55,305 nt of DNA from Candidatus Amesbacteria bacterium GW2011_GWC1_47_15 (GCA_001001375.1 LCNU01000003.1:1-55305), one strand, 5' to 3'; counted from the first letter of the stretch, positions 24,797 to 55,305 are shown. Notes: a model not told the origin generated them from the sequence alone. Program-made: numbers and translations.

Positions 24797-25354
24797 CTAC
24801 TGGCGGGGACTTAATTTTTTTAATAATTTTACGGAGTTTATGGGGCGTTCGGATAACTGTTCGATATAGTCTTTGATATTCATTTCCGGCTTAATCCCGG
24901 GGTCCAGGAATCCCAATTCGATGACGATCCGGGTCAGCCAGCTGTCCACAGTTTCCTGCCAGTCATCCGAAAGTGAAGATATCTGACTTAAGAAACTTTC
25001 CAGCAATTCAAAAATTCCGGGATGCGGCTGTCTGTCCGGGGTGAGCTTGTCTATCGTCTCGCATAGCTGATAAGCAATGACTATCCGGCCTAAAAATTTG
25101 CGCCAGGATGAATAGGCATCCAATACTTCCACCTCCGTCAATATATCCAGATCGGAATGGCCCCGAGCTACACCAGCCTTAACCCGATTGAACAATTCCA
25201 GAGAACCGGCACGCCGGGAATTGGATTGCCTGACACCTTTAGCCTTGAGGGAAATTTTCCCTTTGGACCTGGAAAACAAAGTAATTATCCTGTCAGCCTC
25301 GCCCTGATCCCGGCGTTTAATAATAATTCCTTCAACCTTATAACCGCGCATCAA
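24797..25354 (-). CDS. recO: DNA repair protein RecO (short form)
   Basis: OB-fold N-terminus VEGIIIKRRDQGEADRIITLFSRSKGKISLKAKGVR. At 185 aa it is shorter than a typical RecO. Whether a Zn-finger region is absent was not checked in detail. Confidence 0.75.
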   Translation of the reverse strand: MMRGYKVEGIIIKRRDQGEADRIITLFSRSKGKISLKAKGVRQSNSRRAGSLELFNRVKAGVARGHSDLDILTEVEVLDAYSSWRKFLGRIVIAYQLCETIDKLTPDRQPHPGIFELLESFLSQISSLSDDWQETVDSWLTRIVIELGFLDPGIKPEMNIKDYIEQLSERPINSVKLLKKLSPRQ

Positions 25355-27321
25355 AAGGGAAAATTTAATTCCTTATCGGAAGACAAAATGACTTCAGGAA
25401 GCTTTCGCCCGTTTAAGGTTATCACGTAAGGAAAATCCTTGGAACCCGATTGTTTTTGGATTAATGCTTTATAGGGCGTTTTAACTTTAAACGGCAGTTC
25501 GTATTTAAACGATACCACTTTGGTATTCAGAGGAGTGAGAGTAAAAAAGCCTTCGAAGACCGTCTTGCCCAGATCTTCTCCAACAGTCTGACCGGTTTCA
25601 AAACCTTTTGCTTCCAGAAGTTTGCTACCCGCCGGAACGTAAACCCTCAGCCAGTCTCGAAACACTCCGTTTAGCTTCAGGTTTGTCTTGGAATCTGCAA
25701 AATACTGCTGGGGGTTTTTGTAGGTAAGTGTTAACGTCTTTGTTATATTACCGTCACCGGAAATCTGAGTATCGATATCGGCGTTGTAATTTACCCAGGC
25801 GTTGGTCTTGGCACCGGCAAAATTTGTATCCACCACCATCAGATAGTCCCATCCGTCAGGAATCGGACGGACCCGGCCGGCTAAATTGAAGATTTCCACC
25901 GCATCTTGAATTTTAGAATCTGGGAAGTAAAACTGGATGTGTTTCTGGCCAATGAGCCGCATGGCTGTGTTGAACATTTCCCCCATTTTGCCTTTTGGCT
26001 GAGCCATAACGTTTGACAGAACAGAGTGCATCATAGGCCCGATAAAGGATTTGCGCGCTCCGTAATTTCTTGGTGCAAATACGATCTGTCCGGAGATACT
26101 ATCCCAGACAACCGGGCCTTCGACATCGGCAAACAATTCCAATTCATAAAAGACATTGGGGCAATTGCATCGTTTGTCGTTTTCCGCAGAGTAGTTTCCG
26201 AAACCGGGAACTCCGATCGGCCCGGTAATTTTCAGTAAATCCACCAATACCTGGGTGTCAACCGTAAATATACCATCCACCTCGGGGGATTTTGTCAGCA
26301 GGTAATTGGGGAAAAAAGTTTCCATGGAAACTTTGAAATCCGGTGAGATATTCTGGTCGCGTAGATACCAGTAAGGAACTTTGGGAAGGTATTTTTTGAT
26401 CGGTTCGGGAGCCGGAAGTTTTTTGGGAAACCTTTCGTCCAAAAAGTAAATGTCGTTTGATTCAACTATACCGATCTTACCTTTGCTGACCGAAATAACA
26501 GCATAGGCGGTCATGAAGCCACCCGTGGGCCTGAGCTCCGCGTCGTTTTGGAAAATCACCAGGTATTTACGGACCCCATCTAGACCTAAAATATACGGGG
26601 CAGACTCGAGCAGTGGTTTGGCATCATTAACCAAAGTAGAAGCCTGATCTAATAACAAAATCCCCTGAGTTATCTGATCCCTGACACGCATACCCTTAAA
26701 TTCTTCAGGGTAGCGGTTGGGGTTTATTCCATCGACTTCGCTTCCGGCTTTGGCTAAATGGTCGCCGATAGTTGAAAGCTGAGGTTTGATTTTATCCAGA
26801 GTGTTCACGATAAAATTAATACGATCCTGAGCCGTTTTTTCCCCATTACCGGTCGTGGCTAGGCCTTTCAGTCCAATAATGTCTGCATAGGGGGCTATGG
26901 CTTCTATAGCCACATTTCCTGCAGAAAGGACTTCGCCTGCGGCTGTAAAACCTCTTTCGCCGTCCAGATAATAATTGCGGGCAAGGGGAACAGCTTTGAG
27001 CCATTTCAGCCTGGAATAATCTGCTTTTACCGTTTCCAGATCGGTTTTGACCTGAGCGAGCTGTCCCTGAGTACCTGCCAGGTCCTGAGCTTTGAGGTAT
27101 GGTTCGACCTGCCGGGCAGAAGATTCCAATTTACGCACAGACACCATCAAGCGACGGAGCGGGGAAATCAACGGAAAGTAAAGGATAATGCCGCTTAAAA
27201 GAACAATTAGCAGTAAAACACCTGCCGTTTTGAGAAACAACCGGAAAATTATTTTCGGCTTGGATGACGATGACGTATTCAGCGGCTGGGCTTCCAGCGT
27301 ACGAACCAGTGATTCAGCCAT
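25351..27321 (-). CDS. DUF4012-domain membrane-anchored protein
   Basis: 656 aa with an N-terminal TM helix, a long helical region, then a conserved core (FQNDAELRPTGGFMTAYA). This core is typical of DUF4012 proteins that accompany polysaccharide loci. Confidence 0.65.
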   Translation of the reverse strand: MAESLVRTLEAQPLNTSSSSKPKIIFRLFLKTAGVLLLIVLLSGIILYFPLISPLRRLMVSVRKLESSARQVEPYLKAQDLAGTQGQLAQVKTDLETVKADYSRLKWLKAVPLARNYYLDGERGFTAAGEVLSAGNVAIEAIAPYADIIGLKGLATTGNGEKTAQDRINFIVNTLDKIKPQLSTIGDHLAKAGSEVDGINPNRYPEEFKGMRVRDQITQGILLLDQASTLVNDAKPLLESAPYILGLDGVRKYLVIFQNDAELRPTGGFMTAYAVISVSKGKIGIVESNDIYFLDERFPKKLPAPEPIKKYLPKVPYWYLRDQNISPDFKVSMETFFPNYLLTKSPEVDGIFTVDTQVLVDLLKITGPIGVPGFGNYSAENDKRCNCPNVFYELELFADVEGPVVWDSISGQIVFAPRNYGARKSFIGPMMHSVLSNVMAQPKGKMGEMFNTAMRLIGQKHIQFYFPDSKIQDAVEIFNLAGRVRPIPDGWDYLMVVDTNFAGAKTNAWVNYNADIDTQISGDGNITKTLTLTYKNPQQYFADSKTNLKLNGVFRDWLRVYVPAGSKLLEAKGFETGQTVGEDLGKTVFEGFFTLTPLNTKVVSFKYELPFKVKTPYKALIQKQSGSKDFPYVITLNGRKLPEVILSSDKELNFPF

Positions 27322-27992
27322 TATTTCACCCCGCTTCCCTTACCACTCAACATCACATAGGGGGTCTTAAGCAGGATTTTTAAATCATACCACAGAGACA
27401 TGTTGGCTGCGTAATTGGCGTCCAATTCTATCCGCTTGTCAAAGTTTAAATCGCTCCTGCCTGATACCTGCCACTGGCCGGTAATTCCCGGGCGGACGGA
27501 AAGAGCTTTTTGAATGGAACCGTCGGTGTTGGGAAACCTTTTTTTCTGCTCCGCCAGTTCATCCGGGTAATAAGGCCGGGGGCCGACGAGGCTCATATCA
27601 CCTTTAAGAACATTTATAAACTGGGGTGTTTCATCCAGGGAGTACTTGACTATTACCCTACCTACCGAAGTACGCAGGGGGTCGTTTTCCACTTTATAAC
27701 TGTTTTTTTTAAAATTCTTCAGATATTCCTTATAACGGGGGTCATGAAACTGCAGATAGCGGGCATTGGGGATCATAGACCGGAACTTGAGCAGACGGAA
27801 AACCCGACCGTTTTTGCCTACGCGGTCCGACAATTCAACAAAAATAGGGCCTTTGGGTGTTTCCAGTTTGATGGCGGCGGCAACGATAAGAGCAACAGGC
27901 CAGAAAACAAACAGCAATATCACGGAGCAGATAATATCCATGATACGTTTGATCAGGGGGTACAACATCTGGAAAGAGTTTAAATTTTTCAA
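27321..27992 (-). CDS. Polyprenyl-phosphate glycosyl-1-phosphate transferase (bacterial sugar transferase, small PGT)
   Basis: [21 protein letters not shown] is the hallmark of the WbaP/PglC/EpsL family. It has a single re-entrant N-terminal helix. Confidence 0.88.
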
Positions 27993-29089
27993 AGGTATTT
28001 AGTCAATTGCTGGGCTTTCAGGGTCTGGACAATCAATTTTACCCCCTGGGCGTGTTCTTTGGGGCAGATAAGAAGGGCATCCGGGGTGTCTACTACCACC
28101 ATATCCTTTAATCCAACTGTAGCTACGATTTTTTTATCCAGGAAAAGAAGGTTATTTTCAGAATTTATGCCTATATATTCCCCTTTCCCTTTGGGACCCT
28201 CGATCACGTTACCCGCTCCGTCTTTGGGGAGATGCTGCCAAACAACATTCCAGTCACCAACATCGGACCAACTGAATTTACCGGCAATACAGATAAACCT
28301 GGTGAGATGCTCAGAAACCGCATAATCTATTGAAATCGTTGGGGCCATCTGAAAGGCCAGCCGGATTACTTCATTTTCCTTATCGGTACCAATGGCCTCC
28401 AACACCTTGGGCAACATGGCGTATGTTTTGGGTGCATGTTTCTTTAGCAGTTCAAGATACAGGGCAGCACGGTAAACATATAAATTTGCATTCCAAAAGT
28501 ATTTCCCTGACCGGGTGTATTTTTTGGCCGAAGGAAGAGGAGGCTTTTCCACAAATTTTTCGCCCATAAGCAGTTGATCATTTTCTTTCCACTTTTTATA
28601 TGCTTTAATGTGTCCCATTCCGGTGTGGGGAAACTTGGGCTGAATGCCCACTGTGACGACATGATTGAATTCGTAAGCAGCCTGTGCCGCCTTTTTCATT
28701 TGCGAAATAAATACTTCTATAGGGGATATCAAATGATCTGAAGCCAAGTTGACGATCACAGCTTGCGGATCTTTTTTTAAAATATAAGCTGCGCCAATAG
28801 CATGAGCGAGGGCTGTATCACGACGGATAGGTTCGGCGATTATGTTTTCCTTAGGAACGATTTTCGTTTCCGAGTTTACCAAAGATGCATACTTGGCAGA
28901 TGTGGCTATGAAGATATGCGAAGGAGGGACAATTTTTTTGGCTCTGATAACCGTTAAATCTAAAAGTGACTTACCTCCAAAAAGTTTGACAAACTGTTTG
29001 GGGAATTCTTCACGTGACTGAGGCCAGAGGCGGGTGCCGCCGCCGCCAGCAAGGATCAGGACATATGTATGCTTTTGTACTTCTTCCAT
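27989..29089 (-). CDS. manC: Mannose-1-phosphate guanylyltransferase-like NDP-sugar pyrophosphorylase
   Basis: The LILAGGGGTRLWPQSR signature of ManC/CpsB-type nucleotidyltransferases. 366 aa, with no PMI/cupin extension. Confidence 0.8.
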   Translation of the reverse strand: MEEVQKHTYVLILAGGGGTRLWPQSREEFPKQFVKLFGGKSLLDLTVIRAKKIVPPSHIFIATSAKYASLVNSETKIVPKENIIAEPIRRDTALAHAIGAAYILKKDPQAVIVNLASDHLISPIEVFISQMKKAAQAAYEFNHVVTVGIQPKFPHTGMGHIKAYKKWKENDQLLMGEKFVEKPPLPSAKKYTRSGKYFWNANLYVYRAALYLELLKKHAPKTYAMLPKVLEAIGTDKENEVIRLAFQMAPTISIDYAVSEHLTRFICIAGKFSWSDVGDWNVVWQHLPKDGAGNVIEGPKGKGEYIGINSENNLLFLDKKIVATVGLKDMVVVDTPDALLICPKEHAQGVKLIVQTLKAQQLTKYL

Positions 29090-30183
29090 CGAAGTGTGAA
29101 TAGTTTAACAAATTCGCTTTTAAAACGCTCTTTGGAAAATCGATCGGCATGTGATTGGATAAACGACGAAGAGAATGACTCTTTGGAAAAACCGGCTAGA
29201 GCATGCCGAAGAGATGCAGGAGAATTATCTTCGATAAGAATTCCTGTTTTTCCGTGGATCACAGTCTCGGAGGCGCCACCCTTGTTGAGAGCAATAACCG
29301 GGGTTCCGGCAGCTTGTGCCTCTACAGGGACGATACCGAAATCCTCTTCGTGGAAAAAGATAAGTGCTCTGGAATGCTGATAATGACTTACAAGAACCTC
29401 GCGTGAGACGTTTCCCAAAATGGTTATATGGGGGCGGGCAATACGGCGAAGTTTTTTTTCCAGAGATCCGGTACCAATCACCACCAGCGGCAGATTGATT
29501 TCATTAAATACGTTTATCACGACATCAGGACGTTTGTAAGCTACTAATCTGCTGACGTATAGAAAAAAATCTTTAATTGACGGCGGAGGGGCAGGTGTAG
29601 AAAAAACATCAATATCCACGGGGGGGTAAATCACCTGAGAATCGAGACCGTAATATCGTTTCACCCTATTTTGTACAGTTTTGGAGATAGAAATATATTC
29701 ATCGGGTCTGCGTGATGCTATCAAATCCCAGTACTTCATATATTCAAACACGGGTTGGGAAAACCATCTGTTTACCGGATTTAATAATTTTTTATGAAAA
29801 TCGTAGTGGCTCCACAGGTAACGGGTAGGAGTCAGACAATAACAAAGATGGAAAGTATCAGGCCGGGTGATTATACCTTTGGCATCGGCGCTGGTCACGG
29901 AAATCACGGCGTCAAAATTGTTTAATTCCAGAGTCTCGAAAGCCAGAGGGGTCAGCCAGGGGTAAATCTCGTGATGGCTTTTGGCAAAAGGAAACTTCTG
30001 TAAAAAGGAGGTGATTACCTCCGGAAATACCTGCGCCCAAGCGGCTTTGGCGGGGTGGTAGACAGAGGTAAATAGCGGAGCTTTTGGAAATAATTCATGG
30101 AGAGCCAGAAGCACTTGCTCTGCCCCTCCCCATTTATTTACACGATCGTAAACTAACGCAATTCTTTCCGGTAAATTGCCCAT
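29056..30183 (-). CDS. Glycosyltransferase family 4
   Basis: GT-B fold signatures: WGGAEQV near the N-terminus and the C-terminal EEDFGIVPVEAQAAGTPVIA (E-x7-E region). Confidence 0.85.
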   Translation of the reverse strand: MGNLPERIALVYDRVNKWGGAEQVLLALHELFPKAPLFTSVYHPAKAAWAQVFPEVITSFLQKFPFAKSHHEIYPWLTPLAFETLELNNFDAVISVTSADAKGIITRPDTFHLCYCLTPTRYLWSHYDFHKKLLNPVNRWFSQPVFEYMKYWDLIASRRPDEYISISKTVQNRVKRYYGLDSQVIYPPVDIDVFSTPAPPPSIKDFFLYVSRLVAYKRPDVVINVFNEINLPLVVIGTGSLEKKLRRIARPHITILGNVSREVLVSHYQHSRALIFFHEEDFGIVPVEAQAAGTPVIALNKGGASETVIHGKTGILIEDNSPASLRHALAGFSKESFSSSFIQSHADRFSKERFKSEFVKLFTLRWKKYKSIHMS

Positions 30184-31247: not shown

Positions 31248-31255
31248 TTATCCAA

Positions 31256-32092
31256 TTATATCGCGGCTTTTAATCTGCGCGCAGCATTGAGAAGATATAT
31301 GCCGGTATAAACGATCCAATTGAAGAAAAAGGGGTACCGGCTGGAATAATGTTTTTTATAAAAAGTTTTCATGGCGTTGGTAGAATTTTTTGCCCATTTA
31401 ACTCTGCCGGACTTTGTAACCCTAGCAGAAGCGCCTTTGTAATGAAGGATTTTTACCTCGGGAATATAGAAAATTTTCCAACCAACCTGTTTCAGGCGGA
31501 AGCAAAAATCGAGATCCTCCCCGTTCCAGAAATAATCTTCGTCCAACCAGCTGATCTGCCTGCCGGCAGTGGTTCGAATGAGAGCAAAAGCTCCTGTAAG
31601 GGCATCAATTTCATGAATAGTATCCGGAATCGGAGAATGGGAGTAGCGGGAGAAACGCCTGAAAAACCCAGTGTAAATATGGAGAAAGCTATTCAAAGGA
31701 TTGGGAAACTCCCGATGGCAGGAGTAATCAAGAGAACCATCCGTTAATTCCACCCGGCAAGTAGCAGCACCGACATCGGAATGAGACTTTATGTAATCCA
31801 TGACCGTTTGAATGGTATGCGGGTAGACAATGGTATCGGGGTTTAATAAAAGTGTGTAGGGAGACTTGACTTGCTTTAAAGCGATATTGTTTCCGGCGGA
31901 AAAAATTATTTTTACATGGGGAAAATGTTTTTTAACGGAAGCTGCCGAAGAGTCTGTAGATGCATTGTCTATGACTACTACTTCCCATTGATCACTTTTT
32001 TCCATAGTTTTATAAACCGAGGAAAGACAATCCAAGAGTAGTTTTTCGACGTTGTAGCTGAGGATAATGATAGTTAAGTCAGGTGTTTTCAT
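31256..32092 (-). CDS. Glycosyltransferase family 2
   Basis: LTIIILSYNVEKLLLDCL...VVVIDNASTDSS...LNPDT (DxD-like), which is GT-A fold. Confidence 0.85.
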   Translation of the reverse strand: MKTPDLTIIILSYNVEKLLLDCLSSVYKTMEKSDQWEVVVIDNASTDSSAASVKKHFPHVKIIFSAGNNIALKQVKSPYTLLLNPDTIVYPHTIQTVMDYIKSHSDVGAATCRVELTDGSLDYSCHREFPNPLNSFLHIYTGFFRRFSRYSHSPIPDTIHEIDALTGAFALIRTTAGRQISWLDEDYFWNGEDLDFCFRLKQVGWKIFYIPEVKILHYKGASARVTKSGRVKWAKNSTNAMKTFYKKHYSSRYPFFFNWIVYTGIYLLNAARRLKAAI

Positions 32093-49674: not shown

Positions 49675-50939
49675 GACCTTTTCACTATATACAAACTAAG
49701 AAAAAGTACAAGAGTATTGGCCAATCCCAGTGCCCCGACCGGACCTGACAAACCGAAAAGAGGAGTGAATACTAAATTTCCCCCGATGACAACCAGAACT
49801 TGTAATAGACCTAAAATACCCACCCACTTCGGCGATTTGAAGTGATAAATTAAAAGGGATAAGGGGATTATGGTATACAGAGCCGGTAAATAAGCGAGGG
49901 TTAATCCACGGAAATAGATAACAGCCTCAGCTGCGCGAATACCAAATAAGGCCGGAACCAGCCAGGGGGCTATCATCGCACCGAATAACATAGCCGCTGC
50001 GAGACAGGTAATTCCCAAAAACGCCTTTTGCAGGTAAACCTTTAGGTTTGTTATGTTTTCCGTTACAGAAAAACGGGAAGCCAATACGGCAGTCAGGGAA
50101 ATAAAAATAACCGGATAGAAATTTGCCAGTCGGGCAGCTACGGAATAGATACCCGTAAGCGAAGGTCCAAGAAACACCAAAACCAGCGGTACATCCAGCC
50201 TGGTAGTGACTGTGGAAGCGATCTTATAAACTCCAAGCCAACCGCTGAAACCTACCAAAGACCGAATATGGTTTGCAGAAGGCACATTCAGCCGACGGAT
50301 TCCCAGCCAATTTAACGAAAGGATAATTCCCAGGACGGGAGCCAGAAAAGTGATAGTTTCAACAGTTAACAGGGAAAATTTCCAGGCAAAAATCCATGGC
50401 AGACATGCCAGGAGAAAACGCAGCAGGGAAAAAGTATTAGAAGCTATCGCAGAATGTAAGAATTGTTTTTTGGCCTGAAGAGAATAATTTAGAATATCCA
50501 ACAACGAAATAGTAATAATAGCCAAACCGGCGACCATGACGGCTCCGATCTGCGGAGTGCGAAATACCGTTCTTGCCAGAAATGGAGAAAAAACCACTAT
50601 TACAAGAGATGCCGCGGCAGAGATAACCAAACGTAAGAATAAACCCGAGTTAAGATACCGCCAGGCTCCGGTCGAATCGGAAGAGTTCAGACAACGCGGA
50701 ATGAAAAATAAAAGACCGCTGCCTATTCCGAGGTCCAGAATCAGGACGGCGGTAAAGACCAGGTTGTTTATAGCGGAAAATATTCCGAAATCGGAGGAGG
50801 TCAGCAAGCGGAAGGTGATCAAGGTAAACAGAAAAGCAAATACAGAATCGGCAATATTGCCGGTAAAAAGGATATAGGTGGACTTGGCAGATCCCGAGCC
50901 AGCCAGCGAGAGAGCACGGTGTAAATACTTCTTCACCAT
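49665..50939 (-). CDS. Wzx-like oligosaccharide flippase (MOP superfamily), second copy
   Basis: 424 aa with about 12 TM helices: FTGNIADSVFAFLFTLITFRLLTSSDFGIFSA. Confidence 0.75.
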   Translation of the reverse strand: MVKKYLHRALSLAGSGSAKSTYILFTGNIADSVFAFLFTLITFRLLTSSDFGIFSAINNLVFTAVLILDLGIGSGLLFFIPRCLNSSDSTGAWRYLNSGLFLRLVISAAASLVIVVFSPFLARTVFRTPQIGAVMVAGLAIITISLLDILNYSLQAKKQFLHSAIASNTFSLLRFLLACLPWIFAWKFSLLTVETITFLAPVLGIILSLNWLGIRRLNVPSANHIRSLVGFSGWLGVYKIASTVTTRLDVPLVLVFLGPSLTGIYSVAARLANFYPVIFISLTAVLASRFSVTENITNLKVYLQKAFLGITCLAAAMLFGAMIAPWLVPALFGIRAAEAVIYFRGLTLAYLPALYTIIPLSLLIYHFKSPKWVGILGLLQVLVVIGGNLVFTPLFGLSGPVGALGLANTLVLFLSLYIVKRSWK

Positions 50940-50973
50940 TCAATTATAAACGGGGTATCGGGCATTTTTTTTT

Positions 50974-50981: not shown

Positions 50982-51716
50982 ATGGGGGTGAAAAAAAAGA
51001 AAGATATATCGGTTGTTCTACCGGCATACAACGAGGAAGAAAATATCCTCCTTATCATTTCGAAGATACAACCCTACCTGAAAAAAAATTTCGGGAAATA
51101 CGAGATCATCGTTGTGGATGACGGCAGCAGGGACAAGACTGGAAAGATCGTCAAAGATCTCCAAAAGACACGACCCTGGCTAAGACTGGTAACGCATCCA
51201 AAAAACAGAGGCTACGGCGCGGCACTGCGATCCGGATTCACCAGTGCAAAAATGCCGTGGGTATTTTATACCGACTCGGACAACCAGTTTGATATCAACG
51301 ATCTGGACAAGCTGATGCCGCTGACGGAAAAATTCGATATCGTCGCCGGGTACCGGGAACACCGACAGGATCCGTACATGAGGATATTTATTGCCTGGGT
51401 ATATAACCAAATAATATGGCTTTCGCTGGGTTTGAAAATCCGGGATATCGACTGCGCTTTTAAAATTTACAAAAAGCAGGTATTTGACAAGATCAAAATG
51501 ACCAGCGAGACGGGTCTTATCGACGCAGAAGTGTTGGTGAAGGCAAAAAGGGCGGGGTTTACCATCGGGCAAACCGGCGTCCGGCATTTTCCCAGGACTT
51601 TGGGGCAGACGGTATATGAAGTGGGGGGAAGAAATAAATTTTTCGCGTTTGTGAAGCCTCAGGTCGTAATGAGTTTACTTTACGAAATCGGATCACTGCG
51701 TCGGGAGTTGGGATAA
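50982..51716 (+). CDS. Polyprenyl-phosphate sugar synthase-like GT2 (DPM1/DPG-synthase/GtrB-like)
   Basis: ISVVLPAYNEEENI, VVDDGSRDKT, NRGYGAALRSG, and YTDSDNQFD. The true start may be GTG 50988. Confidence 0.78.
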   Translation: MGVKKKKDISVVLPAYNEEENILLIISKIQPYLKKNFGKYEIIVVDDGSRDKTGKIVKDLQKTRPWLRLVTHPKNRGYGAALRSGFTSAKMPWVFYTDSDNQFDINDLDKLMPLTEKFDIVAGYREHRQDPYMRIFIAWVYNQIIWLSLGLKIRDIDCAFKIYKKQVFDKIKMTSETGLIDAEVLVKAKRAGFTIGQTGVRHFPRTLGQTVYEVGGRNKFFAFVKPQVVMSLLYEIGSLRRELG

Positions 51717-52834
51717 AAAAGAGACTTTAAAAAATACACTGATAACAAATAGATAAAAGGCGTCAGGAGGACGAGATAACGGGGGAAAACGGAGGTAAGG
51801 GAGAGGAAGGAGAGGTAGACGAGAGCCCACATCCCAACAAAGACTGCAGGACCGTTAATAATTTTCAATTTTAAATTTGAAATCCTTCGACTTTGCTCAG
51901 GACGAGTTTGAAATGAAAATATAAATGATATCAATGACAAAATTAATGCCGGGAACCAGAGGGGAGTCCACTCCCTTACCCTCAATAATTCCTTTCTCCC
52001 CCACCAAGTAGGCCAACGGCCGGAAAAAATTATGGGAAATATGCCACCCCAGGGAGCACGGGCATTTCCGGCCCACCAATCCGCCATCCAACTTTGCAAA
52101 CGCAAAAAAGCCATTGGGTCGGGATTTCTTACCAACGAAGGTAAATAAGGTATGACAAAACCTACCAGGATAAACGGTAGGGAAATAATATAAGCGATAA
52201 AGCTGCGGAAATTCTGCCGAAAAAAAAGATAAACCAAATAGACGGCTAAAAGCAGCAGTCCGTTAAGCCAGAATTTTACAGCCATCAATAACCCCAGGGA
52301 GAAGCTGGCCGGGATGAAAAAGCGGACGTCTTTCTCCGCCCGCAAAAAGAAATAAACCGAAAGCAGCAGGAAAAAGAGAGCGGGGATATCCAGATAAGCG
52401 TCGGCAAGGAGAAGACGGAACTGGGGATCGAGGGTTTGGAGAATGACAACGATCAAAGCCGGAACCGGTGACTGAAACAGCAGAAAACCCAACAGATACA
52501 ACATAAAAACCGACAGCACACCCAGCGCCAGTTGAATGACTAGGGGGTTTTTAAAATAGAGGATACTAAGACCGAAAAACTGTTTACCCAAAGGGGGGAC
52601 TTCCGCCTGGAGAGTCACCGGGTCCAGACCCGTAACATATTTGTAACCGATAATGGGATACAATTCCGTATCCGCCAGAATCCGCGGTGCCTTGTCCCCG
52701 ATTATTGTCTGGGACCGGGAAAACTCTTGGTCCCAGTAATTAATATTGTAAGTGTGAGTGTAAACAAACCAATGGGAGTTAATAAAATGAAGTCCTATTA
52801 ACAAAAGAATCGCTATTAGCCAAAGATTTTTCAT
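51680..52834 (-). CDS. GT-C-fold polytopic membrane glycosyltransferase-like protein
   Basis: 384 aa and polytopic. Its 3' end overlaps the convergent GT2 gene by 37 nt. It is translationally coupled (ATGA) to the upstream GT-C gene. Confidence 0.55.
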   Translation of the reverse strand: MKNLWLIAILLLIGLHFINSHWFVYTHTYNINYWDQEFSRSQTIIGDKAPRILADTELYPIIGYKYVTGLDPVTLQAEVPPLGKQFFGLSILYFKNPLVIQLALGVLSVFMLYLLGFLLFQSPVPALIVVILQTLDPQFRLLLADAYLDIPALFFLLLSVYFFLRAEKDVRFFIPASFSLGLLMAVKFWLNGLLLLAVYLVYLFFRQNFRSFIAYIISLPFILVGFVIPYLPSLVRNPDPMAFLRLQSWMADWWAGNARAPWGGIFPIIFSGRWPTWWGRKELLRVREWTPLWFPALILSLISFIFSFQTRPEQSRRISNLKLKIINGPAVFVGMWALVYLSFLSLTSVFPRYLVLLTPFIYLLSVYFLKSLFYPNSRRSDPIS

Positions 52835-54060
52835 TTAATTAATTTATATACGGAATAACCGGATTCATTAGTGCTGAGTTTTTGAACTTTATAAGGATAG
52901 AAAGAGTTGAGTTCATAATTAACCGGAGACAGGTTCGCTTCTTCCGGGGCTAAGACATACAGGGCAGAGATACGGTTGTAATTATCGTAGACTTCAGGTT
53001 CCAAATGAAAATAATATTTCAGAAAATATCGCAGCTGGTGGGCGCGGGTATCGAAATCCAGAAGTGAGGCAACATTGAAGTTTTCCGGTCTTTGGTCAGC
53101 AATGACGGAAGCGGCTGATTCCCAATCGGCTAAAGACACACCGGCGGGAAGTTTTGGCTGCAAGTCCAAGTTTAAGAACATGTATAAGAAAATAATCGTG
53201 ACTACGGGTAAAAATCTTTTTTTGGACCAAAGACGGGTAAGAATATTCCCGCCAAGTATGGCCAGCAGAGGCCAGAAGTGGAGAAAGTGATAGTAGGTAA
53301 TATGGCCCTGACCCGGATTTGCCAGGGTATCCATAAAATACTGCCAAACAGACCGGGTATGGTAAAAATAATGCTTAAGATCGAAGAGGATCATCGGCAT
53401 CCCGGCAAAGATCGAGCCCAACAAATAATAAAAAGCGTTTTTGATTTTGGATTTTGAATAATACAACAATATCCCAACCACCAATATCAAAGTGAGCAGA
53501 TAAAAATATTCCAGGCCTAGAATTAAGCCCGACAGGAAGCCAAGATACAGAGAATATTGGGTTGAGCGGGTTTGGTAAAAACGATAAAGACCGAAAAGGA
53601 CTAAAAGACCCAGGAGGGGTAACCAGTTCAGGCTCCAGATGAAAAGAGAGTGGCCTACCATAAAAGAAGAGAAAAGGAATAAGATGGAAGAGAACAGAGC
53701 CGTCCAAAAATTGAAAACTTTTTTTGTCAAATGGTATAGAGTTAATCCCGTCAATAGATTTAATAAAGTAAAGAAAACTGTAATAGGCATGGGGCGGTAT
53801 TTAAACAACAGCATCAATGGAACCAGAGAGTAATTGAAAAAAGGGGCTGTAAACAACTGATGGCCCCGGGAAGTGGTCCTGAAATAAGGTTGGCCCAGAA
53901 GCGAAGGCTTTTCCAGCATTTGTCCGGAAATAAGTAAGGACATGGCCTGTTCAGGACCGAAGATAATTCTGTTCTGGTAATTGAAGAACCTGACACCGAC
54001 AGCAATGGCAAATACAGCGACGATAATTGCAGTTTTTGTCAGAGATGAAGGCCGGGACAC
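52831..54060 (-). CDS. GT-C-fold polytopic membrane glycosyltransferase-like protein (ArnT/PMT_2-like)
   Basis: 409 aa with a GTG start and about 10 TM helices, followed by a C-terminal soluble domain. It is adjacent to a DPM1-like GT2. Confidence 0.6.
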   Translation of the reverse strand: MSRPSSLTKTAIIVAVFAIAVGVRFFNYQNRIIFGPEQAMSLLISGQMLEKPSLLGQPYFRTTSRGHQLFTAPFFNYSLVPLMLLFKYRPMPITVFFTLLNLLTGLTLYHLTKKVFNFWTALFSSILFLFSSFMVGHSLFIWSLNWLPLLGLLVLFGLYRFYQTRSTQYSLYLGFLSGLILGLEYFYLLTLILVVGILLYYSKSKIKNAFYYLLGSIFAGMPMILFDLKHYFYHTRSVWQYFMDTLANPGQGHITYYHFLHFWPLLAILGGNILTRLWSKKRFLPVVTIIFLYMFLNLDLQPKLPAGVSLADWESAASVIADQRPENFNVASLLDFDTRAHQLRYFLKYYFHLEPEVYDNYNRISALYVLAPEEANLSPVNYELNSFYPYKVQKLSTNESGYSVYKLIK

Positions 54061-54091: not shown

Positions 54092-54934
54092 ATGAACCCG
54101 GGTTTAAGTTATTACAAGACAATAGGTGTTATCGGACATTTGGGTATGGTAGGCGGAACCACCTATCGTTACTTTAAAGATTCCAGTCAAGAAGTTTATG
54201 GTTTTGACCTTAGGGATCAGAAGGACAAAAAGAAAGCGTTCAGCAGCGAGCTGGTTTTCGTGTGCGTTCCTACTCCATATCATTGGGACGGACGGGGATA
54301 CGACGGATCAATAGTAGAAAAGGTATTGAAAATGATCCCTGAAGGCCGAACTGTAGTCGTAAAAAGCACAATATCCATAGGAACGACGGACAAACTTCAA
54401 AAATCCAATCCCAAACTGAAAGTTTTGTTTAACCCGGAATTTTTATCTGAAGCCACCTGCGATATAGATTTTCGTAATCCGGACCGGCAATTTGTGGGGT
54501 ACACAGACAAATCCTATACTGAGGCTACCAAAGTGCTCAATATGCTGCCGGAAAGCCCATACGGAATCATCCTGCCGGCCAAAGAAGCGGAACTATTAAA
54601 ATACATCAACAATATGCACGGGGTGCTGGAGGTGCTGGAATCCAACCATTATTGGGAGGTATGCCAAAAAGAAAAATTGGATTACGAGAGAGTGATCAAG
54701 GCGGCTGTTGCATCGAAATGGGTCGGGTCTGTCATGGGTAGACAATACCGGACAATCTGGCACCGGGGGGCACGGGGGGTAAAAGGCAAGTGTTTCCCAA
54801 AAGATCTGAACGCCTGGATCGATTACTGCAACACCCGGGGAATACCGGTGGAATTACTTTCTGCAGCAAGGAAGATGAACCTACGAATTCTGAAAGAACA
54901 AAAACTAACAGAGTCCAAAGCGGAAAATCTGTAA
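54092..54934 (+). CDS. UDP-glucose/GDP-mannose dehydrogenase-family protein lacking the C-terminal nucleotide-sugar-binding domain
   Basis: N-terminal Rossmann IGVIGHLGMVGG, VFVCVPTP, VVVKSTISIGTT, NPEFLSEA, and the catalytic-Cys box GVKGKCFPKDL. The ORF ends at 280 aa, whereas canonical enzymes are about 390-450 aa. Confidence 0.65.
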   Translation: MNPGLSYYKTIGVIGHLGMVGGTTYRYFKDSSQEVYGFDLRDQKDKKKAFSSELVFVCVPTPYHWDGRGYDGSIVEKVLKMIPEGRTVVVKSTISIGTTDKLQKSNPKLKVLFNPEFLSEATCDIDFRNPDRQFVGYTDKSYTEATKVLNMLPESPYGIILPAKEAELLKYINNMHGVLEVLESNHYWEVCQKEKLDYERVIKAAVASKWVGSVMGRQYRTIWHRGARGVKGKCFPKDLNAWIDYCNTRGIPVELLSAARKMNLRILKEQKLTESKAENL

Positions 54935-54936
54935 AA

Positions 54937-55305
54937 TCAGCGTATGGGAGTAAGGGTAAGTATTTGCGTATCACGTGAATAGGAGTAATGGTAATCGAAC
55001 TTTTTGGAAGAGGACAAAAAGTACGGCAGGGCTTGGTAATCCATTGCATGATTCAGATTAGGTGTAACATCCCAATTGCTTAGCCGGACTTGGCTGACTT
55101 GATTATTAATTACTGATTCCGCGGCGCGGACTATTTTAGCCATGGCTTGTTTTTCAAAATGCACAGAAGGGTGCTTTATGCGGAACAGGATCTTATATAT
55201 CCCTTGAACAGGGTTGAACAATATCAAGAATATAACCAAAGCCCAAAGCCAGCGGCGTCTTTGAAGTAATTCTGCGAAAAACAACAGGATAAATGTAATG
55301 GGGAA
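54937..55305 (-). CDS. Hypothetical membrane-associated protein, probably the C-terminal part of a longer ORF starting beyond the window
   Basis: The track gives a TTG start at 55284, but the frame stays open to nt 55305 (FPITFILLFF...). It has one hydrophobic helix then a soluble tail. Confidence 0.4.
   Translation of the reverse strand, partial: FPITFILLFFAELLQRRRWLWALVIFLILFNPVQGIYKILFRIKHPSVHFEKQAMAKIVRAAESVINNQVSQVRLSNWDVTPNLNHAMDYQALPYFLSSSKKFDYHYSYSRDTQILTLTPIR

What the first reader, a model, noticed from the sequence alone, without database searches (positions are those of the whole stretch)
25351..55305. A 30-kb envelope-glycan supercluster combining a Wzx/Wzy-type pathway with an expansion of GT-C membrane glycosyltransferases
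Seen in sequence:
- Between 25351 and the window end, every gene has either a glycan-assembly signature or no recognisable family.
- The locus holds one initiating phosphoglycosyl transferase (MSLVGPRP), a ManC-like pyrophosphorylase, 6 GT4, 5 GT2 and 5 polytopic GT-C-like proteins (33288, 39809, 41131, 51680, 52831).
- It also holds a Wzy_C/O-antigen-ligase-like protein, 2 MOP flippases, an LbH acetyltransferase, 2 SAM methyltransferases, a HAD phosphatase, an FAD oxidoreductase, a truncated UDP-sugar-dehydrogenase-like protein and DUF4012.
- Further glycosyltransferase genes lie elsewhere: a GT-C-like gene at 3046, a GT4 fragment at 1-447, and possibly the partial ORF at 54937.

Established knowledge:
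- PGT + cytoplasmic GTs + Wzx + Wzy define a Wzy-dependent heteropolysaccharide route.
- DPM1-like GT2 + GT-C define extracytoplasmic glycosylation from polyprenyl-P-monosaccharide donors (Ppm1/Pmt, ArnC/ArnT, GtrB/GtrC, CsbB/YfhO).

Inference:
- Both logics appear merged in one locus, building a highly decorated (acetylated, methylated) surface polymer or glycoprotein glycan.
- Five to seven different GT-C enzymes would imply many distinct extracytoplasmic transfer steps.
- I cannot name a characterised cluster with this composition, and the product is unknown.
Basis: partly seen in the sequence, partly recalled or inferred. Interest (0 to 1): 0.75.

Follow-up and report, generated by a model that had tools for sequence, protein, structure and literature searches.

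The report
Conserved Microgenomates envelope-glycan operon, many GT-Cs
This is a long, tightly packed operon for building a sugar coat on the cell surface of an uncultivated groundwater bacterium (Microgenomates, candidate phyla radiation); its core is kept gene-for-gene across the whole lineage and uses unusually many membrane-embedded (GT-C) sugar-adding enzymes, but its product is unknown.

Summary
Window 25351-55305 encodes:
- one phosphoglycosyl transferase, 6 GT4 and 5 GT2 (two resemble polyprenyl-phosphate-sugar synthases);
- 2 MOP flippases, an O-acetyltransferase and 2 methyltransferases;
- a WaaL-fold Wzy_C protein and DUF4012;
- five polytopic PMT_2-type GT-C proteins.

The five GT-C proteins are not recent duplicates. 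Three of them define separate, remotely related subfamilies, and each keeps acidic residues just after the first transmembrane helix. The 39809 protein has no Pfam hit, yet its AlphaFold model (pLDDT 96.5) matches only solved GT-C enzymes.

A near-identical contig shows the cluster continuing at least 10 kb past the window end. That stretch holds two supported GT-C genes, two weaker polytopic candidates and heptose-pathway-like genes.

A 12-gene core is collinear in 32 of 32 fully covered relatives (Amesbacteria, Daviesbacteria, Woesebacteria). In one Daviesbacteria contig it ends at the same DUF4012-recO-glyS junction. GC content equals that of the housekeeping genes. This is therefore an ancient, vertically inherited pathway, not a variable antigen island.

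Best reading: a two-compartment lipid-linked glycan assembly line. The product, the acceptor and the role of the WaaL-like enzyme are unresolved. New variant of a known kind; interest 0.6.

The parts
25351..27321 (-). DUF4012 membrane-anchored protein; last gene of the operon, next to recO
   Evidence: Pfam PF13196 at 92.8 bits. No match by sequence to any solved structure. Holds the same position (PGT-DUF4012-recO-glyS) in Daviesbacteria locus L082.
27321..27992 (-). Small initiating phosphoglycosyl transferase (223 aa, catalytic domain only)
   Evidence: Bac_transf at 199.9 bits. Matches the C-terminal part of the EPS_sugtrans and WbaP models. Contains the MSLVGPRP motif.
27989..29089 (-). 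ManC-like sugar-1-phosphate guanylyltransferase
   Evidence: NTP_transferase plus ManC_GMP_beta-helix. GMP_PMI at 285 bits, below the cutoff. Absent at this position in L082.
29056..30183 (-). GT4 glycosyltransferase
   Evidence: Glycos_transf_1 at 97.4 bits. Found in 13 of 32 type A loci; the flank length limits this count.
30153..31247 (-). GT4 glycosyltransferase
   Evidence: Glycos_transf_1 at 109.6 bits.
31256..32092 (-). GT2 glycosyltransferase (not Dpm1-like)
   Evidence: Glycos_transf_2 and Glyco_tranf_2_3. NCBIfam gives only generic EPS GT2 matches.
32089..33291 (-). GT4 glycosyltransferase (core block)
   Evidence: Glyco_trans_1_4 at 91.3 bits. Found in 30 of 32 type A loci.
33288..34763 (-). 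GT-C (PMT_2-type) membrane glycosyltransferase, core subfamily 1
   Evidence: PMT_2 at 30.6 bits, above the 26.1 cutoff. In the 30-sequence family alignment A2, D31, W32, H33, R36, Q37 and D39 after TM1 are invariant. Found in 32 of 32 type A loci. hhalign gives 98.3% probability to the 41131 family.
34760..35233 (-). Small HAD-IA phosphatase-like protein
   Evidence: Weak Pfam Hydrolase and HAD_2 hits. TIGR01509 at 33.7 bits. Only 1 relative in the loci.
35230..36531 (-). WaaL-fold Wzy_C protein: glycan polymerase or ligase
   Evidence: Wzy_C at 48.2 bits, above the 31.7 cutoff. AlphaFold model has pLDDT 77.4. Foldseek top hit is the WaaL ligase 7tpg (E 2.3e-6, TM 0.57/0.60), followed by FtsW and RodA. 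Found in 32 of 32 type A loci.
36524..37030 (-). Conserved protein of unknown family with a TM helix at each end, always just upstream of the Wzy_C gene
   Evidence: No Pfam or NCBIfam hit. 43 relatives in the loci share EPADTE, LNYPPEE and IRDQ..S.LEE.VHP motifs. Found in 32 of 32 type A loci.
37032..37673 (-). WcaF-like hexapeptide O-acetyltransferase
   Evidence: Hexapep at 60.7 bits. NF007797 (WcaF family) at 89 bits, below the cutoff. Found in 32 of 32 type A loci.
37670..38782 (-). GT4 glycosyltransferase (core)
   Evidence: Glycos_transf_1 at 118.4 bits. Found in 32 of 32 type A loci.
38779..39837 (-). GT4 glycosyltransferase (core); the 352-aa call is preferred over the 399-aa ORF
   Evidence: Glycos_transf_1 at 63.4 bits. 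Gene call taken from public contigs. Found in 32 of 32 type A loci.
39809..41134 (-). GT-C membrane glycosyltransferase, core subfamily 2 (no Pfam hit for this sequence)
   Evidence: AlphaFold model has pLDDT 96.5 and pTM 0.94. Foldseek finds only GT-C enzymes: STT3, PglB, ArnT (TM 0.63), AftD, DPY19, ALG12, ALG9. 82 of 110 family members hit PMT_2. E25 and W116 are invariant in 110 sequences. The family has 4611 representatives at E<=1e-3.
41131..42537 (-). GT-C (PMT_2-type) membrane glycosyltransferase, core subfamily 3
   Evidence: PMT_2 at 23 bits, below the cutoff, but 30 of 32 family members hit PMT_2 (best 1e-22). D32-E33 and D54, H56, P57, P58 are invariant. Found in 29 of 32 type A loci.
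42507..43274 (-). GT2 glycosyltransferase (core)
   Evidence: Glycos_transf_2 at 49.1 bits. Found in 32 of 32 type A loci.
43262..44194 (-). GT4 glycosyltransferase (310-aa call)
   Evidence: Glyco_trans_1_4 at 86.2 bits. Gene call. Found in 30 of 32 type A loci.
44210..44914 (+). AglJ/ArnC/Dpm1-like GT2: candidate polyprenyl-phosphate-sugar synthase of the core block
   Evidence: Best NCBIfam matches are AglJ at 126 bits, then ArnC, PpgS, PgfS and dolichyl-phosphate hexose transferase, all below their cutoffs. Found in 32 of 32 type A and 7 of 7 type B loci.
44870..45580 (-). SAM-dependent methyltransferase
   Evidence: Methyltransf_23, _12 and _11. Found in 30 of 32 type A loci.
45573..46337 (-). 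SAM-dependent methyltransferase
   Evidence: Methyltransf_11 at 76.6 bits. Found in 12 of 32 type A loci.
46334..47161 (-). GT2 glycosyltransferase
   Evidence: Glycos_transf_2 at 39.9 bits. Found in 27 of 32 type A loci.
47148..48428 (-). MOP (Wzx-type) flippase of the core block
   Evidence: Polysacc_synt at 74.1 bits. TuaB-like at 48 bits. Found in 26 of 32 type A and 7 of 7 type B loci.
48403..49674 (-). FAD-dependent oxidoreductase (PRK07233 family); accessory module
   Evidence: Amino_oxidase at 126.4 bits. NF005560 at 423 bits, above the 252 cutoff. Matches to solved structures cover only the N-terminal Rossmann part. Hits in only 4 loci, including the Amesbacteria loci L007 and L049.
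49665..50939 (-). Second MOP flippase; accessory module
   Evidence: Polysacc_synt at 52.2 bits. 26% identical to the 47148 flippase. Strong orthologs only in L007 and L049.
50982..51716 (+). Second Dpm1/ArnC-like GT2: candidate polyprenyl-phosphate-sugar synthase
   Evidence: Glycos_transf_2 at 99.4 bits. NCBIfam matches ArnC, dolichyl-phosphate hexose transferase, PgfS and PpgS. 27% identical to the 44210 GT2.
51680..52834 (-). Small GT-C (PMT_2-type) membrane glycosyltransferase; accessory module
   Evidence: PMT at 19.1 bits, below the cutoff. Homologs at 46-59% identity carry PF13231. D55 and E78, P80, P81, G83, K84 are invariant. hhalign gives 71% probability to the 41131 family.
52831..54060 (-). 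Probable GT-C membrane glycosyltransferase; accessory module
   Evidence: PMT_2 at 22.6 bits, below the cutoff. hhalign gives 90% probability to the 39809 family. Relative L075 passes the PMT_2 cutoff. The acidic residue after TM1 is conserved.
54092..54934 (+). Short NDP-sugar-dehydrogenase-like protein (280 aa)
   Evidence: UDPG_MGDP_dh_N and the central domain only. NDP-sugDHase model positions 74-296 of 413. The identical protein is indexed in 97 blocks of the contig collection.
54937..55305 (-). C-terminal part of a 437-aa polytopic membrane protein that runs off the window
   Evidence: Full length seen in L079. No Pfam hit. hhalign to the GT-C families is weak (25% probability or less).

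Best explanation
The region is the larger part of a super-operon of more than 40 kb, native to the chromosome and vertically inherited. It assembles a conserved envelope glycoconjugate of Microgenomates (candidate phyla radiation), working on both faces of the membrane.

Proposed sequence of steps. Only the gene content, the fold assignments and the synteny are shown here; every biochemical step below is inferred.
1. The small phosphoglycosyl transferase (27321) loads a sugar-phosphate onto a polyprenyl phosphate at the cytoplasmic face.
2. Six GT4 and three ordinary GT2 enzymes extend this into a long lipid-linked oligosaccharide. It is O-acetylated (37032) and methylated (44870, 45573).
3. 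The Wzx-type MOP flippase (47148) moves it to the outer face.
4. In parallel, the AglJ/Dpm1-like GT2 (44210) makes a polyprenyl-phosphate monosaccharide. In this lineage a second such enzyme (50982) does the same.
5. The PMT_2-type GT-C enzymes use these donors outside the cell to add branches or short chains. They are 33288, 39809 and 41131 in the conserved core, plus 51680 and 52831 in an Amesbacteria-type accessory module. That module also holds a second flippase and an FAD oxidoreductase.
6. The WaaL-fold Wzy_C protein (35230), with its constant small partner (36524), either polymerises the units or ligates the finished glycan to its acceptor. The acceptor could be a surface protein, peptidoglycan or a lipid.
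7. DUF4012 acts as an extracytoplasmic auxiliary factor.
For: Gene content:
- All classes are confirmed by Pfam and NCBIfam.
- 18 consecutive genes overlap or abut by -34 to +8 nt, which indicates one coupled operon.

GT-C identity:
- 33288 passes the PMT_2 cutoff.
- 30 of 32 members of the 41131 family and 82 of 110 members of the 39809 family hit PMT_2.
- The 39809 model (pLDDT 96.5) matches only GT-C enzymes such as ArnT, PglB/STT3, AftD, ALG9 and ALG12.
- Acidic residues just after TM1 are conserved in every family.

Donor synthases:
- 44210 and 50982 match AglJ, ArnC, PpgS, PgfS and dolichyl-phosphate hexose transferase best.
- 44210 co-occurs with the GT-C genes in 32 of 32 type A and 7 of 7 type B loci.
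- In Curtissbacteria-type loci a Dpm1-like GT2 sits directly beside the 39809 homolog.

The Wzy_C protein has a WaaL-like fold.

One conserved pathway rather than a variable island:
- At least 10 of 12 core genes lie in the window's order in 32 of 32 fully covered relatives, at about 30-45% identity.
- One Daviesbacteria contig ends at the same DUF4012-recO-glyS junction.
- Cluster GC is 0.459 against 0.460 for the housekeeping genes.

Precedent: combined Wzx/Wzy and GT-A/flippase/GT-C systems exist in monoderm bacteria, including a Wzx-type flippase (GacK) for a C55-P-sugar (PMC8035078).
Against: - There is no experimental evidence of any kind: no glycan, acceptor or enzyme activity is known for any member.
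- All NCBIfam matches of the two Dpm1-like GT2s are far below the curated cutoffs, so their lipid-phosphate acceptor is inferred from their best resemblance only.
- No GtrA-type flippase is present, so how polyprenyl-phosphate sugars would cross the membrane is open.
- No Wzz/PCP, LCP ligase or STT3-type transferase was detected in the cluster. The final step is therefore unassigned.
- The WaaL-like protein could not be placed as polymerase or ligase. The Foldseek results listed no structure named Wzy, and hhalign to E. coli WaaL gave only 1.9% probability.
- Nine cytoplasmic GTs is many for a single repeat unit, so the genes may serve more than one product.
- Structural support for a GT-C fold was obtained for 39809 only.
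Confidence: 0.6

Rival explanations
1. Specific variant A: a Wzy-dependent repeat-unit polymer. It would be a secondary cell-wall polysaccharide or capsule. 35230 is the polymerase, 36524 is a small co-polymerase-like partner, and the GT-C enzymes only add side-chain sugars. This is the model proposed for the Bacillus anthracis SCWP (Wzx/Wzy plus GtsABC).
For: - PGT, MOP flippase and Wzy_C are all present.
- 36524 has a TM helix at each end around an outside domain and always precedes 35230. From memory, PCP-2b proteins have this topology.
- The precedent is described in PMC8035078.
Against: - No Wzz/PCP Pfam signal, no BY-kinase and no LCP ligase in the cluster.
- Nine cytoplasmic GTs would imply an unusually large repeat unit.
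- The best structural match of 35230 is a ligase (WaaL), not a polymerase, though the Foldseek results listed no structure named Wzy.
Confidence: 0.3
2. Specific variant B: en bloc glycosylation. One long lipid-linked oligosaccharide is built inside, flipped, and extended outside by GT-C enzymes. 35230 then transfers it whole onto S-layer, pilin or other surface proteins, acting as a PglL/WaaL-type O-oligosaccharyltransferase. In logic this is a bacterial counterpart of the eukaryotic ER pathway.
For: - 35230 has a WaaL-like fold.
- Many single-copy GTs and a conserved gene order fit one fixed glycan structure.
- No co-polymerase family was detected.
- CPR genomes have been suggested to make glycoproteins or a glycosylated S-layer (PMC3812714).
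Against: - No acceptor protein is encoded in the cluster.
- Extracytoplasmic extension of a lipid-linked oligosaccharide by GT-C enzymes before transfer has no bacterial precedent that I could cite outside mycobacterial-type lipoglycans.
- No OST motif (WWDYG) is present in any cluster protein.
Confidence: 0.22
3. Several independent pathways are merely co-located. For example, PMT-like GT-C enzymes could mannosylate secreted proteins directly from polyprenyl-phosphate mannose, as actinobacterial Pmt/Ppm1 do, alongside a separate Wzx/Wzy polysaccharide.
For: - The GT-C families belong to the PMT_2 clan, which includes protein O-mannosyltransferases.
- The accessory module (49665-54060) is present only in Amesbacteria-type loci, which shows that the locus is modular.
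Against: - The three core GT-C genes are interleaved with the GT4/GT2 genes and translationally coupled to them.
- Their order relative to those genes is fixed in 32 of 32 loci. This argues for one functional unit.
Confidence: 0.15
4. A strain-specific, horizontally acquired O-antigen or capsule-type island of the usual hypervariable kind.
For: - Its gene classes resemble those of O-antigen or CPS loci.
- Some public assemblies break about 1.7 kb beyond the 52831 gene, which hints at local strain variation at the distal end.
Against: - The core is collinear across Amesbacteria, Daviesbacteria and Woesebacteria at about 30-45% protein identity.
- The chromosomal junction is the same in one Daviesbacteria contig.
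- GC content is identical to that of the housekeeping genes.
- No mobile-element genes lie inside the cluster.
Confidence: 0.03
5. The GT-C candidates are transporters or non-catalytic membrane proteins.
For: Four of the five score below the Pfam gathering threshold, or not at all, as single sequences.
Against: - Family-level PMT_2 hits: 30 of 32 and 82 of 110.
- Foldseek hits for 39809 at E<=0.01 are all GT-C enzymes or complexes containing them; transporters appear only at E>0.1 with TM<0.2.
- Loop-1 acidic residues are invariant or conserved.
Confidence: 0.04

Closest known systems
Multi-component transmembrane glycosylation systems of monoderm bacteria combined with Wzx/Wzy or rhamnan backbones (B. 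anthracis SCWP with GtsABC; S. pyogenes GacI/J/K/L; L. lactis CsdAB/CD/EF) - PMC8035078
   Same: - A cytoplasmic GT-A (GT2) makes a C55-P-sugar, a flippase moves it, and a PMT_2/YfhO-type GT-C adds the sugar outside to a polymer whose backbone was started on a lipid carrier.
- A Wzx-type flippase can serve the C55-P-sugar (GacK).
   Different: - Here at least three GT-C genes sit inside the conserved core and five inside the window. Two supported ones and two weaker candidates lie just beyond it.
- No GtrA-type flippase or LCP ligase was found in the cluster.
- A WaaL-fold protein, DUF4012 and a lineage-specific 168-aa partner are fixed components.
- The whole block is conserved at class level, not species level.
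Mycobacterial lipomannan/lipoarabinomannan and arabinogalactan assembly (PimA/B GT4, Ppm1 GT2, PimE/MptA-C/Emb/Aft GT-C)
   Same: - GT4 steps in the cytoplasm are followed by many different GT-C steps outside, fed by polyprenyl-phosphate sugars.
- AftD, AftA, EmbB and PimE are among the structural matches of 39809.
   Different: - Initiation here is by a phosphoglycosyl transferase on polyprenyl phosphate, not on phosphatidylinositol.
- Only 3 of 110 members of the 39809 family touch Pfam GT87.
- A MOP flippase and a WaaL-like protein are present.
- The organism is a CPR bacterium with a different envelope.
Eukaryotic/archaeal lipid-linked oligosaccharide pathway for N-glycosylation (Alg7, Alg1/2/11, Rft1, Dpm1/Alg5, Alg3/9/12/6/8/10, STT3/AglB)
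   Same: - Same two-compartment logic: a phosphosugar initiator, cytoplasmic GT4-type extension, a MOP-superfamily flippase, Dpm1-like donor synthases, and several GT-C enzymes on the far side.
- ALG9, ALG12 and STT3 are structural matches of 39809.
   Different: - No STT3/AglB/PglB-family oligosaccharyltransferase was found. A single family member has an STT3 hit, at E = 0.006. No WWDYG motif is present.
- The terminal enzyme candidate is WaaL-like.
- The resemblance is one of logic only. Homology of the pathway as a whole was not shown.
S-layer / general protein O-glycosylation clusters (Geobacillus/Paenibacillus slg loci, Tannerella forsythia) and the B. subtilis teichuronic acid operon tuaA-H
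   Same: - PGT, GT4/GT2, Wzx, a Wzy_C-domain transferase or polymerase, and methyl/acetyl decoration.
- Weak NCBIfam matches to TuaB, TuaG and TuaD-type models.
   Different: Those clusters vary between species and, from memory, do not carry several GT-C genes. All NCBIfam scores are far below the cutoffs.

Membership tests
GT-C fold glycosyltransferases, PMT_2 (ArnT/PMT-like) clan | Significant match to the family profile (Pfam PF13231 or PF02366) above the gathering score | tested here: inconclusive
   - Met for 33288 (30.6 bits against 26.1).
- Below the cutoff for 41131 (23), 52831 (22.6), 51680 (19.1) and 3046 (25.9); no hit for 39809.
- At family level, 30 of 32 members (41131 family) and 82 of 110 (39809 family) hit PMT_2.
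- Close homologs of 51680 carry PF13231.
GT-C fold glycosyltransferases, PMT_2 (ArnT/PMT-like) clan | Three-dimensional fold matching solved GT-C enzymes | tested here: met
   Tested for 39809 only. The model has pLDDT 96.5. Every Foldseek match at E<=0.01 is a GT-C enzyme or a complex containing one, and ArnT gives TM 0.63.
GT-C fold glycosyltransferases, PMT_2 (ArnT/PMT-like) clan | Conserved acidic residue(s) in the first extracytoplasmic loop, directly after TM1 | tested here: met
   - 33288 family: D31 and D39 invariant.
- 41131 family: D32-E33 invariant.
- 39809 family: E25 invariant in 110 sequences.
- 51680 family: D55 invariant and D47 nearly invariant.
- 52831: E37 aligns with the D of a D-E pair in relatives.

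The loop's position outside the membrane is inferred from hydropathy and the 39809 model. It was not measured.
GT-C fold glycosyltransferases, PMT_2 (ArnT/PMT-like) clan | Use of a polyprenyl-phosphate-linked sugar donor | not testable with these tools
   Supported only by context. AglJ/Dpm1-like GT2 genes co-occur in 32 of 32 type A and 7 of 7 type B loci.
Wzx/Wzy-dependent polysaccharide pathway | Initiating phosphoglycosyl transferase and MOP-family Wzx flippase | tested here: met
   Bac_transf at 199.9 bits. Polysacc_synt at 74.1 and 52.2 bits.
Wzx/Wzy-dependent polysaccharide pathway | Wzy polymerase | tested here: inconclusive
   35230 has a Wzy_C domain and a WaaL-like fold. These data cannot separate a polymerase from a ligase.
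Wzx/Wzy-dependent polysaccharide pathway | Polysaccharide co-polymerase (Wzz/PCP) and, in monoderms, an LCP ligase | tested here: not met
   No Wzz or LytR_cpsA_psr Pfam hit in any of the 30 proteins of the region. The 36524 protein has two terminal TM helices but no family match. Genes elsewhere in the genome could not be examined.
WaaL / PglL O-antigen-ligase family | Wzy_C domain and WaaL-type fold | tested here: met
   PF04932 at 48.2 bits, above the 31.7 cutoff. Top Foldseek hit is 7tpg WaaL, E 2.3e-6.
WaaL / PglL O-antigen-ligase family | Catalytic Arg/His residues of the large outer loop (E. coli WaaL R215, R288, H338; residue numbers from memory) | tested here: inconclusive
   hhalign of the family profile against E. 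coli K-12 WaaL gives only 1.9% probability. It does locally pair the invariant R222 with R215. The outer loops 154-176 and 272-307 are modelled with low confidence.
Multi-component transmembrane glycosylation system (GT-A + flippase + GT-C) | Polyprenyl-phosphate-sugar synthase of the CsbB/GtrB/ArnC/Dpm1 type | tested here: inconclusive
   44210 and 50982 resemble AglJ, ArnC, PpgS, PgfS and dolichyl-phosphate hexose transferase most closely, but every score is below the curated cutoff. Both lack the C-terminal TM helices of CsbB/GtrB (234 and 244 aa).
Multi-component transmembrane glycosylation system (GT-A + flippase + GT-C) | Dedicated small GtrA-type flippase | tested here: not met
   No GtrA Pfam hit in the region. 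A second MOP flippase (49665) is a possible substitute, as GacK is (PMC8035078).
STT3/PglB/AglB oligosaccharyltransferases | STT3 Pfam domain and WWDYG motif | tested here: not met
   No PF02516 hit for any window protein. No WWD or W[WY]D[YWF]G motif in any cluster protein. PglB and STT3 appear only as fold-level matches of 39809.

The most novel reading that the evidence does not exclude
Microgenomates build one fixed, long lipid-linked oligosaccharide in two compartments. GT4/GT2 enzymes extend it in the cytoplasm, a MOP flippase moves it, and three or more different GT-C enzymes then extend it stepwise outside, fed by Dpm1-like synthases. A WaaL/PglL-type enzyme transfers it whole onto surface proteins (S-layer or pili). 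This would be a bacterial pathway with the same assembly logic as the eukaryotic ER N-glycan pathway, conserved across a whole class of the candidate phyla radiation.
Probability: 0.2. Interest if true: 0.8.

Novelty: new variant of a known kind. Interest (0 to 1): 0.6.

Why it matters
CPR bacteria make up a large share of bacterial diversity. Most are uncultivated and are thought to live attached to other cells, so their surface chemistry is central to their biology and almost unknown.

What this locus offers:
- A concrete, lineage-wide candidate for the main envelope glycoconjugate of Microgenomates.
- Defined gene families that could be expressed heterologously: three GT-C subfamilies with no match by sequence to any solved structure or NCBIfam model, a WaaL-like enzyme with a fixed 168-aa partner, and DUF4012.
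- A conservation level like that of a core cell-envelope pathway, not a serotype locus. That makes it usable as a phylogenetic marker and as a target for glycoproteomics of existing groundwater samples.
- One of the densest groupings of different GT-C enzymes that I can name outside the Mycobacteriales (comparison from memory). It could broaden the known range of extracytoplasmic glycosylation.

Tried and rejected
- **Recent paralog expansion of GT-C genes:** rejected. All-against-all BLASTP gives nothing better than E = 0.027. The relationship shows only at profile level.
- **Sequence searches against solved structures:** profiles of the three core GT-C families and the Wzy family, plus the DUF4012 protein, gave no meaningful hit.
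- **NCBIfam naming:** none of the six GT-C candidates has a match even at E<=0.1.
- **Structure prediction from locus-derived alignments:** The second job therefore used proteins, which gave a shallower and less diverse alignment and a pLDDT of only 77.
- **Placing 35230 as ligase or polymerase:** alignment to E. coli WaaL failed, with 1.9% probability.
- **FAD oxidoreductase 48403:** matches to solved structures cover only the Rossmann N-terminus, so no function could be assigned. I considered a DprE1-like or UGM-like role but have no evidence for either.
- **GDP-heptose pathway reading:** the GmhA-like and HddA-like genes beyond the window score below their cutoffs, and the HAD protein is generic. 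I keep this only as a lead.
- **Literature:** nine searches found no paper describing this cluster. They found only general remarks on the abundance of GTs in CPR genomes and on DUF4012.
- **Repeats and RNA scan of the region:** only conserved GT4/GT2 motif DNA, and tRNA-Val outside the region.
- **Species identity:** the species-representative genome collection holds no identical copy of the 39809 gene; the best match is 46% identical, in a Ca. Amesbacteria MAG. The source species could not be named.

Full report
**Setting**

The window (55.3 kb, about 45% GC) has two halves.
- The first half holds housekeeping genes: IleRS, a division/cell-wall cluster from mraZ to ftsZ, GlyRS and recO.
- From 25351 to the end, almost everything lies on the minus strand.

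The exact 39809 protein is indexed in 68 blocks of the public contig collection. These include ENA assemblies whose contigs are named ANAN16-1 and JGI sample 3300025326; I believe these are Rifle aquifer groundwater datasets, but that is from memory.

The nearest species-representative genomes are Candidatus Amesbacteria MAGs, at 46% identity for the 39809 protein. The source is therefore an unnamed member of the Microgenomates in the candidate phyla radiation.

**Check of the observation**

- DUF4012;
- a 223-aa Bac_transf phosphoglycosyl transferase carrying MSLVGPRP;
- a ManC-like guanylyltransferase;
- six GT4 and five GT2;
- a HAD protein, a Wzy_C protein and a WcaF-like hexapeptide acetyltransferase;
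- two SAM methyltransferases and two MOP flippases;
- an amine-oxidase-type FAD protein (NF005560, 423 bits);
- a 280-aa NDP-sugar-dehydrogenase-like protein.

The fifth GT2 is a + strand gene at 44210-44914. It shows up only in the public gene calls.

Two genes have no family: 36524 and the partial ORF at 54937.

Eighteen consecutive genes overlap or abut by -34 to +8 nt. The cluster GC (0.459) equals that of the housekeeping half (0.460).

**Are the GT-C candidates real?**

The five proteins are not recent duplicates. All-against-all BLASTP finds nothing better than E = 0.027.

I collected relatives from 70 genome loci and built family alignments.
- Profile comparison shows that the 33288, 41131 and 39809 families are homologous to one another. 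hhalign gives 97.0-98.3% probability over 275-346 columns. They are three old subfamilies of one superfamily.
- 33288 passes the PMT_2 gathering score.
- 30 of 32 members of the 41131 family hit PMT_2.
- 82 of 110 members of the 39809 family hit PMT_2.

The 39809 family is large. A full HMMER scan found 4611 cluster representatives at E<=1e-3 and 382 at E<=1e-30. The window protein itself has no Pfam or NCBIfam hit, and the family has no match by sequence to any solved structure.

Its AlphaFold model is very confident (pLDDT 96.5, pTM 0.94). Foldseek against the PDB returns only GT-C enzymes at E<=0.01: STT3/PglB, ArnT (TM 0.63), AftD, DPY19, ALG12, ALG9 and AftA. Unrelated transporters and receptors appear only with TM<0.2.

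For the two accessory proteins:
- 51680 has homologs at 46-59% identity annotated with PF13231.
- 52831 reaches 90% hhalign probability to the 39809 family, and a relative passes the PMT_2 cutoff.

Each family keeps acidic residues directly after the first transmembrane helix:

| Family | Conserved acidic residues |
|---|---|
| 33288 | D31 and D39, invariant |
| 41131 | D32-E33, invariant |
| 39809 | E25, invariant in 110 sequences |
| 51680 | D55 invariant, D47 nearly invariant |
| 52831 | E37, aligned to the D of a D-E pair in relatives |

That test fails to refute.

**The cluster is larger than the window**

A contig with 10 mismatches in 11,214 nt (L079) shows what follows the window end:
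- the full 437-aa polytopic protein, of which 54937-55305 is the tail;
- a 406-aa polytopic protein;
- a GmhA-like SIS isomerase and an HddA-like GHMP kinase (both below their NCBIfam cutoffs);
- a 525-aa PMT_2 protein (96.5% hhalign probability to the 41131 family);
- a 178-aa membrane protein;
- an NDP-sugar 4,6-dehydratase-like enzyme and a methyltransferase;
- a 531-aa protein (96.8% hhalign probability to the 39809 family);
- an FrhB/FdhB-like gene.

The super-operon therefore spans more than 40 kb. It holds seven supported GT-C-type genes, plus two unassigned polytopic proteins and the separate 3046 gene.

**Conservation**

This is the main new result.

I searched the 70 loci with the window's proteins. 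A collinear block appears:

MOP47148 - GT2 - methyltransferase(s) - GT2_44210 - GT4 - GT2 - GTC41131 - GTC39809 - GT4 - GT4 - acetyltransferase - 36524 - Wzy_C - GTC33288 - GT4 - (GT2) - GT4 - GT4 - PGT

- Among 39 loci with full 10-kb flanks, 32 carry a close 39809 ortholog. They are labelled Amesbacteria, Daviesbacteria, Woesebacteria or Microgenomates-group, and many are mislabelled MAGs.
- All 32 have at least 10 of 12 core genes in the window's order.
- Nine of those genes are present in 32 of 32.
- Protein identities to the window are about 30-45% outside Amesbacteria.
- A Daviesbacteria contig ends PGT - DUF4012 - recO - glyS. That is exactly the junction in the window.
- A Curtissbacteria-type variant rearranges the same families. 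It places a Dpm1-like GT2 directly beside the 39809 homolog.
- The distal module (second MOP, FAD oxidoreductase, 51680) has clear orthologs in the Amesbacteria loci, and FAD homologs occur in two further loci.

The locus is thus an ancient, vertically inherited core pathway with lineage-specific add-ons. It is not a hypervariable antigen island.

**The other key components**

- Donor synthases. The GT2s at 44210 and 50982 resemble polyprenyl-phosphate-sugar synthases most closely: AglJ at 126 bits, then ArnC, PpgS, PgfS and dolichyl-phosphate hexose transferase. All scores are below the curated cutoffs. The two are 27% identical to each other.
- The Wzy_C protein. It belongs to a family of at least 2867 protein clusters, mostly unnamed or called 'O-antigen ligase family'. 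Its model (pLDDT 77, weak in two outer loops) matches the WaaL ligase best (E 2.3e-6, TM 0.57/0.60), then FtsW and RodA. I could not decide between polymerase and ligase. The Foldseek results listed no structure named Wzy, and alignment to E. coli WaaL was unreliable.
- The 168-aa 36524 protein. It has a TM helix at each end and strongly conserved outside motifs, and it always precedes the Wzy_C gene.
- Not detected in the cluster: a Wzz/PCP, an LCP ligase, a GtrA flippase, or an STT3-type transferase or its motif.

**Mechanism**

The best-supported reading is a two-compartment assembly line.
1. A phosphoglycosyl transferase starts the glycan on a polyprenyl phosphate.
2. GT4 and GT2 enzymes extend it in the cytoplasm, with acetylation and methylation.
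3. Wzx flips it.
4. PMT_2-type GT-C enzymes elaborate it outside, using polyprenyl-phosphate sugars made by the Dpm1-like GT2s.
5. The WaaL-like enzyme polymerises or ligates it.

Gene content, folds, conserved residues and synteny are shown here. Every enzymatic step, the sugars, and the acceptor are inferred.

Sub-variants that I cannot separate:
- a Wzy-type repeat polymer with GT-C side chains, as proposed for the B. anthracis SCWP (PMC8035078);
- a single long oligosaccharide transferred whole to surface proteins;
- GT-C-built chains on a lipid-derived core, as in mycobacterial lipomannan.

**Comparison with known systems, and novelty**

What differs here:
- the number of distinct GT-C enzymes built into one operon;
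- the fixed WaaL-like + 36524 + DUF4012 trio;
- the absence of the usual accessory proteins;
- class-level conservation at a fixed chromosomal site in an uncultivated lineage.

I found no paper describing the cluster. The only related statements are two:
- CPR genomes are rich in glycosyltransferases that might make polysaccharides, glycoproteins or a glycosylated S-layer (PMC3812714).
- DUF4012 is among families enriched in CPR and also in Gram-positive bacteria (PMC6744442).

I rate it a new variant of a known kind, with interest 0.6. It is solid and extendable, and it could serve as the entry point to CPR surface chemistry. It is built from known enzyme classes, and its product is still unknown.

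Noticed in passing
beyond window end; L079:10846-20843 (L079 position = window position - 44091): The glycan cluster continues at least 10 kb past the window. It holds a 437-aa and a 406-aa polytopic protein, GmhA-like and HddA-like genes (a possible heptose pathway), a 525-aa PMT_2 protein, an NDP-sugar dehydratase-like gene, a methyltransferase, a 531-aa GT-C-like protein and an FrhB/FdhB-like gene.
   Followed up: partly
window 23408-27321 and L082:16245-20775: The junction PGT - DUF4012 - recO - glyS is the same in the window and in a Daviesbacteria contig. The cluster therefore sits at a conserved chromosomal site.
   Followed up: partly
L010, L011, L013, L014 and many others: Many species-representative MAGs titled 'uncultured Gammaproteobacteria' (binchicken and SRP co-assemblies), one 'Alphaproteobacteria' and one 'Binatia' carry homologs of the 39809 gene. 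Most of them, though not the Binatia locus L030, also carry the Microgenomates-type cluster. Their taxonomic titles look wrong, or the bins are contaminated.
   Followed up: no
L077 and L078: The two contigs shown that carry the 52831 gene end about 1.2-1.7 kb beyond it, while other assemblies read through. This may reflect strain-level variation or a repeat at the distal end of the cluster.
   Followed up: no
window 11332-12033 (+): An IS200-like Y1 transposase domain protein (PF01797, 44 bits) sits between IleRS and ftsZ. It is the only mobile-element-type gene seen in the window.
   Followed up: no
window 4303-5271 (-) and 5072-5146 (-): The 322-aa ORF overlaps tRNA-Val (CAC) on the same strand. 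The real protein gene must start downstream of the tRNA, so the long ORF is an over-extension.
   Followed up: no
window 552-2882 (+), within 1-3000: A 776-aa protein combines Kelch-type beta-propeller repeats with a PGAP1/LCAT-like lipase domain. It lies in a stretch of clearly lower GC (0.37 against 0.46). It is flanked by a GT4 fragment (1-447, minus strand) and a further PMT_2-like gene (3046-4314).
   Followed up: no
window 18655-19026 (-): A 123-aa three-helix membrane protein lies inside the mraY-ftsI region. By eye it looks like a DgkA-type diacylglycerol/undecaprenol kinase. If so, a lipid-carrier recycling enzyme sits in the division/cell-wall cluster. This was not tested against any library.
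   Followed up: no
L082:5871-7400: Daviesbacteria loci carry an extra 509-aa weakly PMT_2-like gene (17 bits) between the two core GT4 genes. That gives four GT-C-type genes in their core.
   Followed up: no
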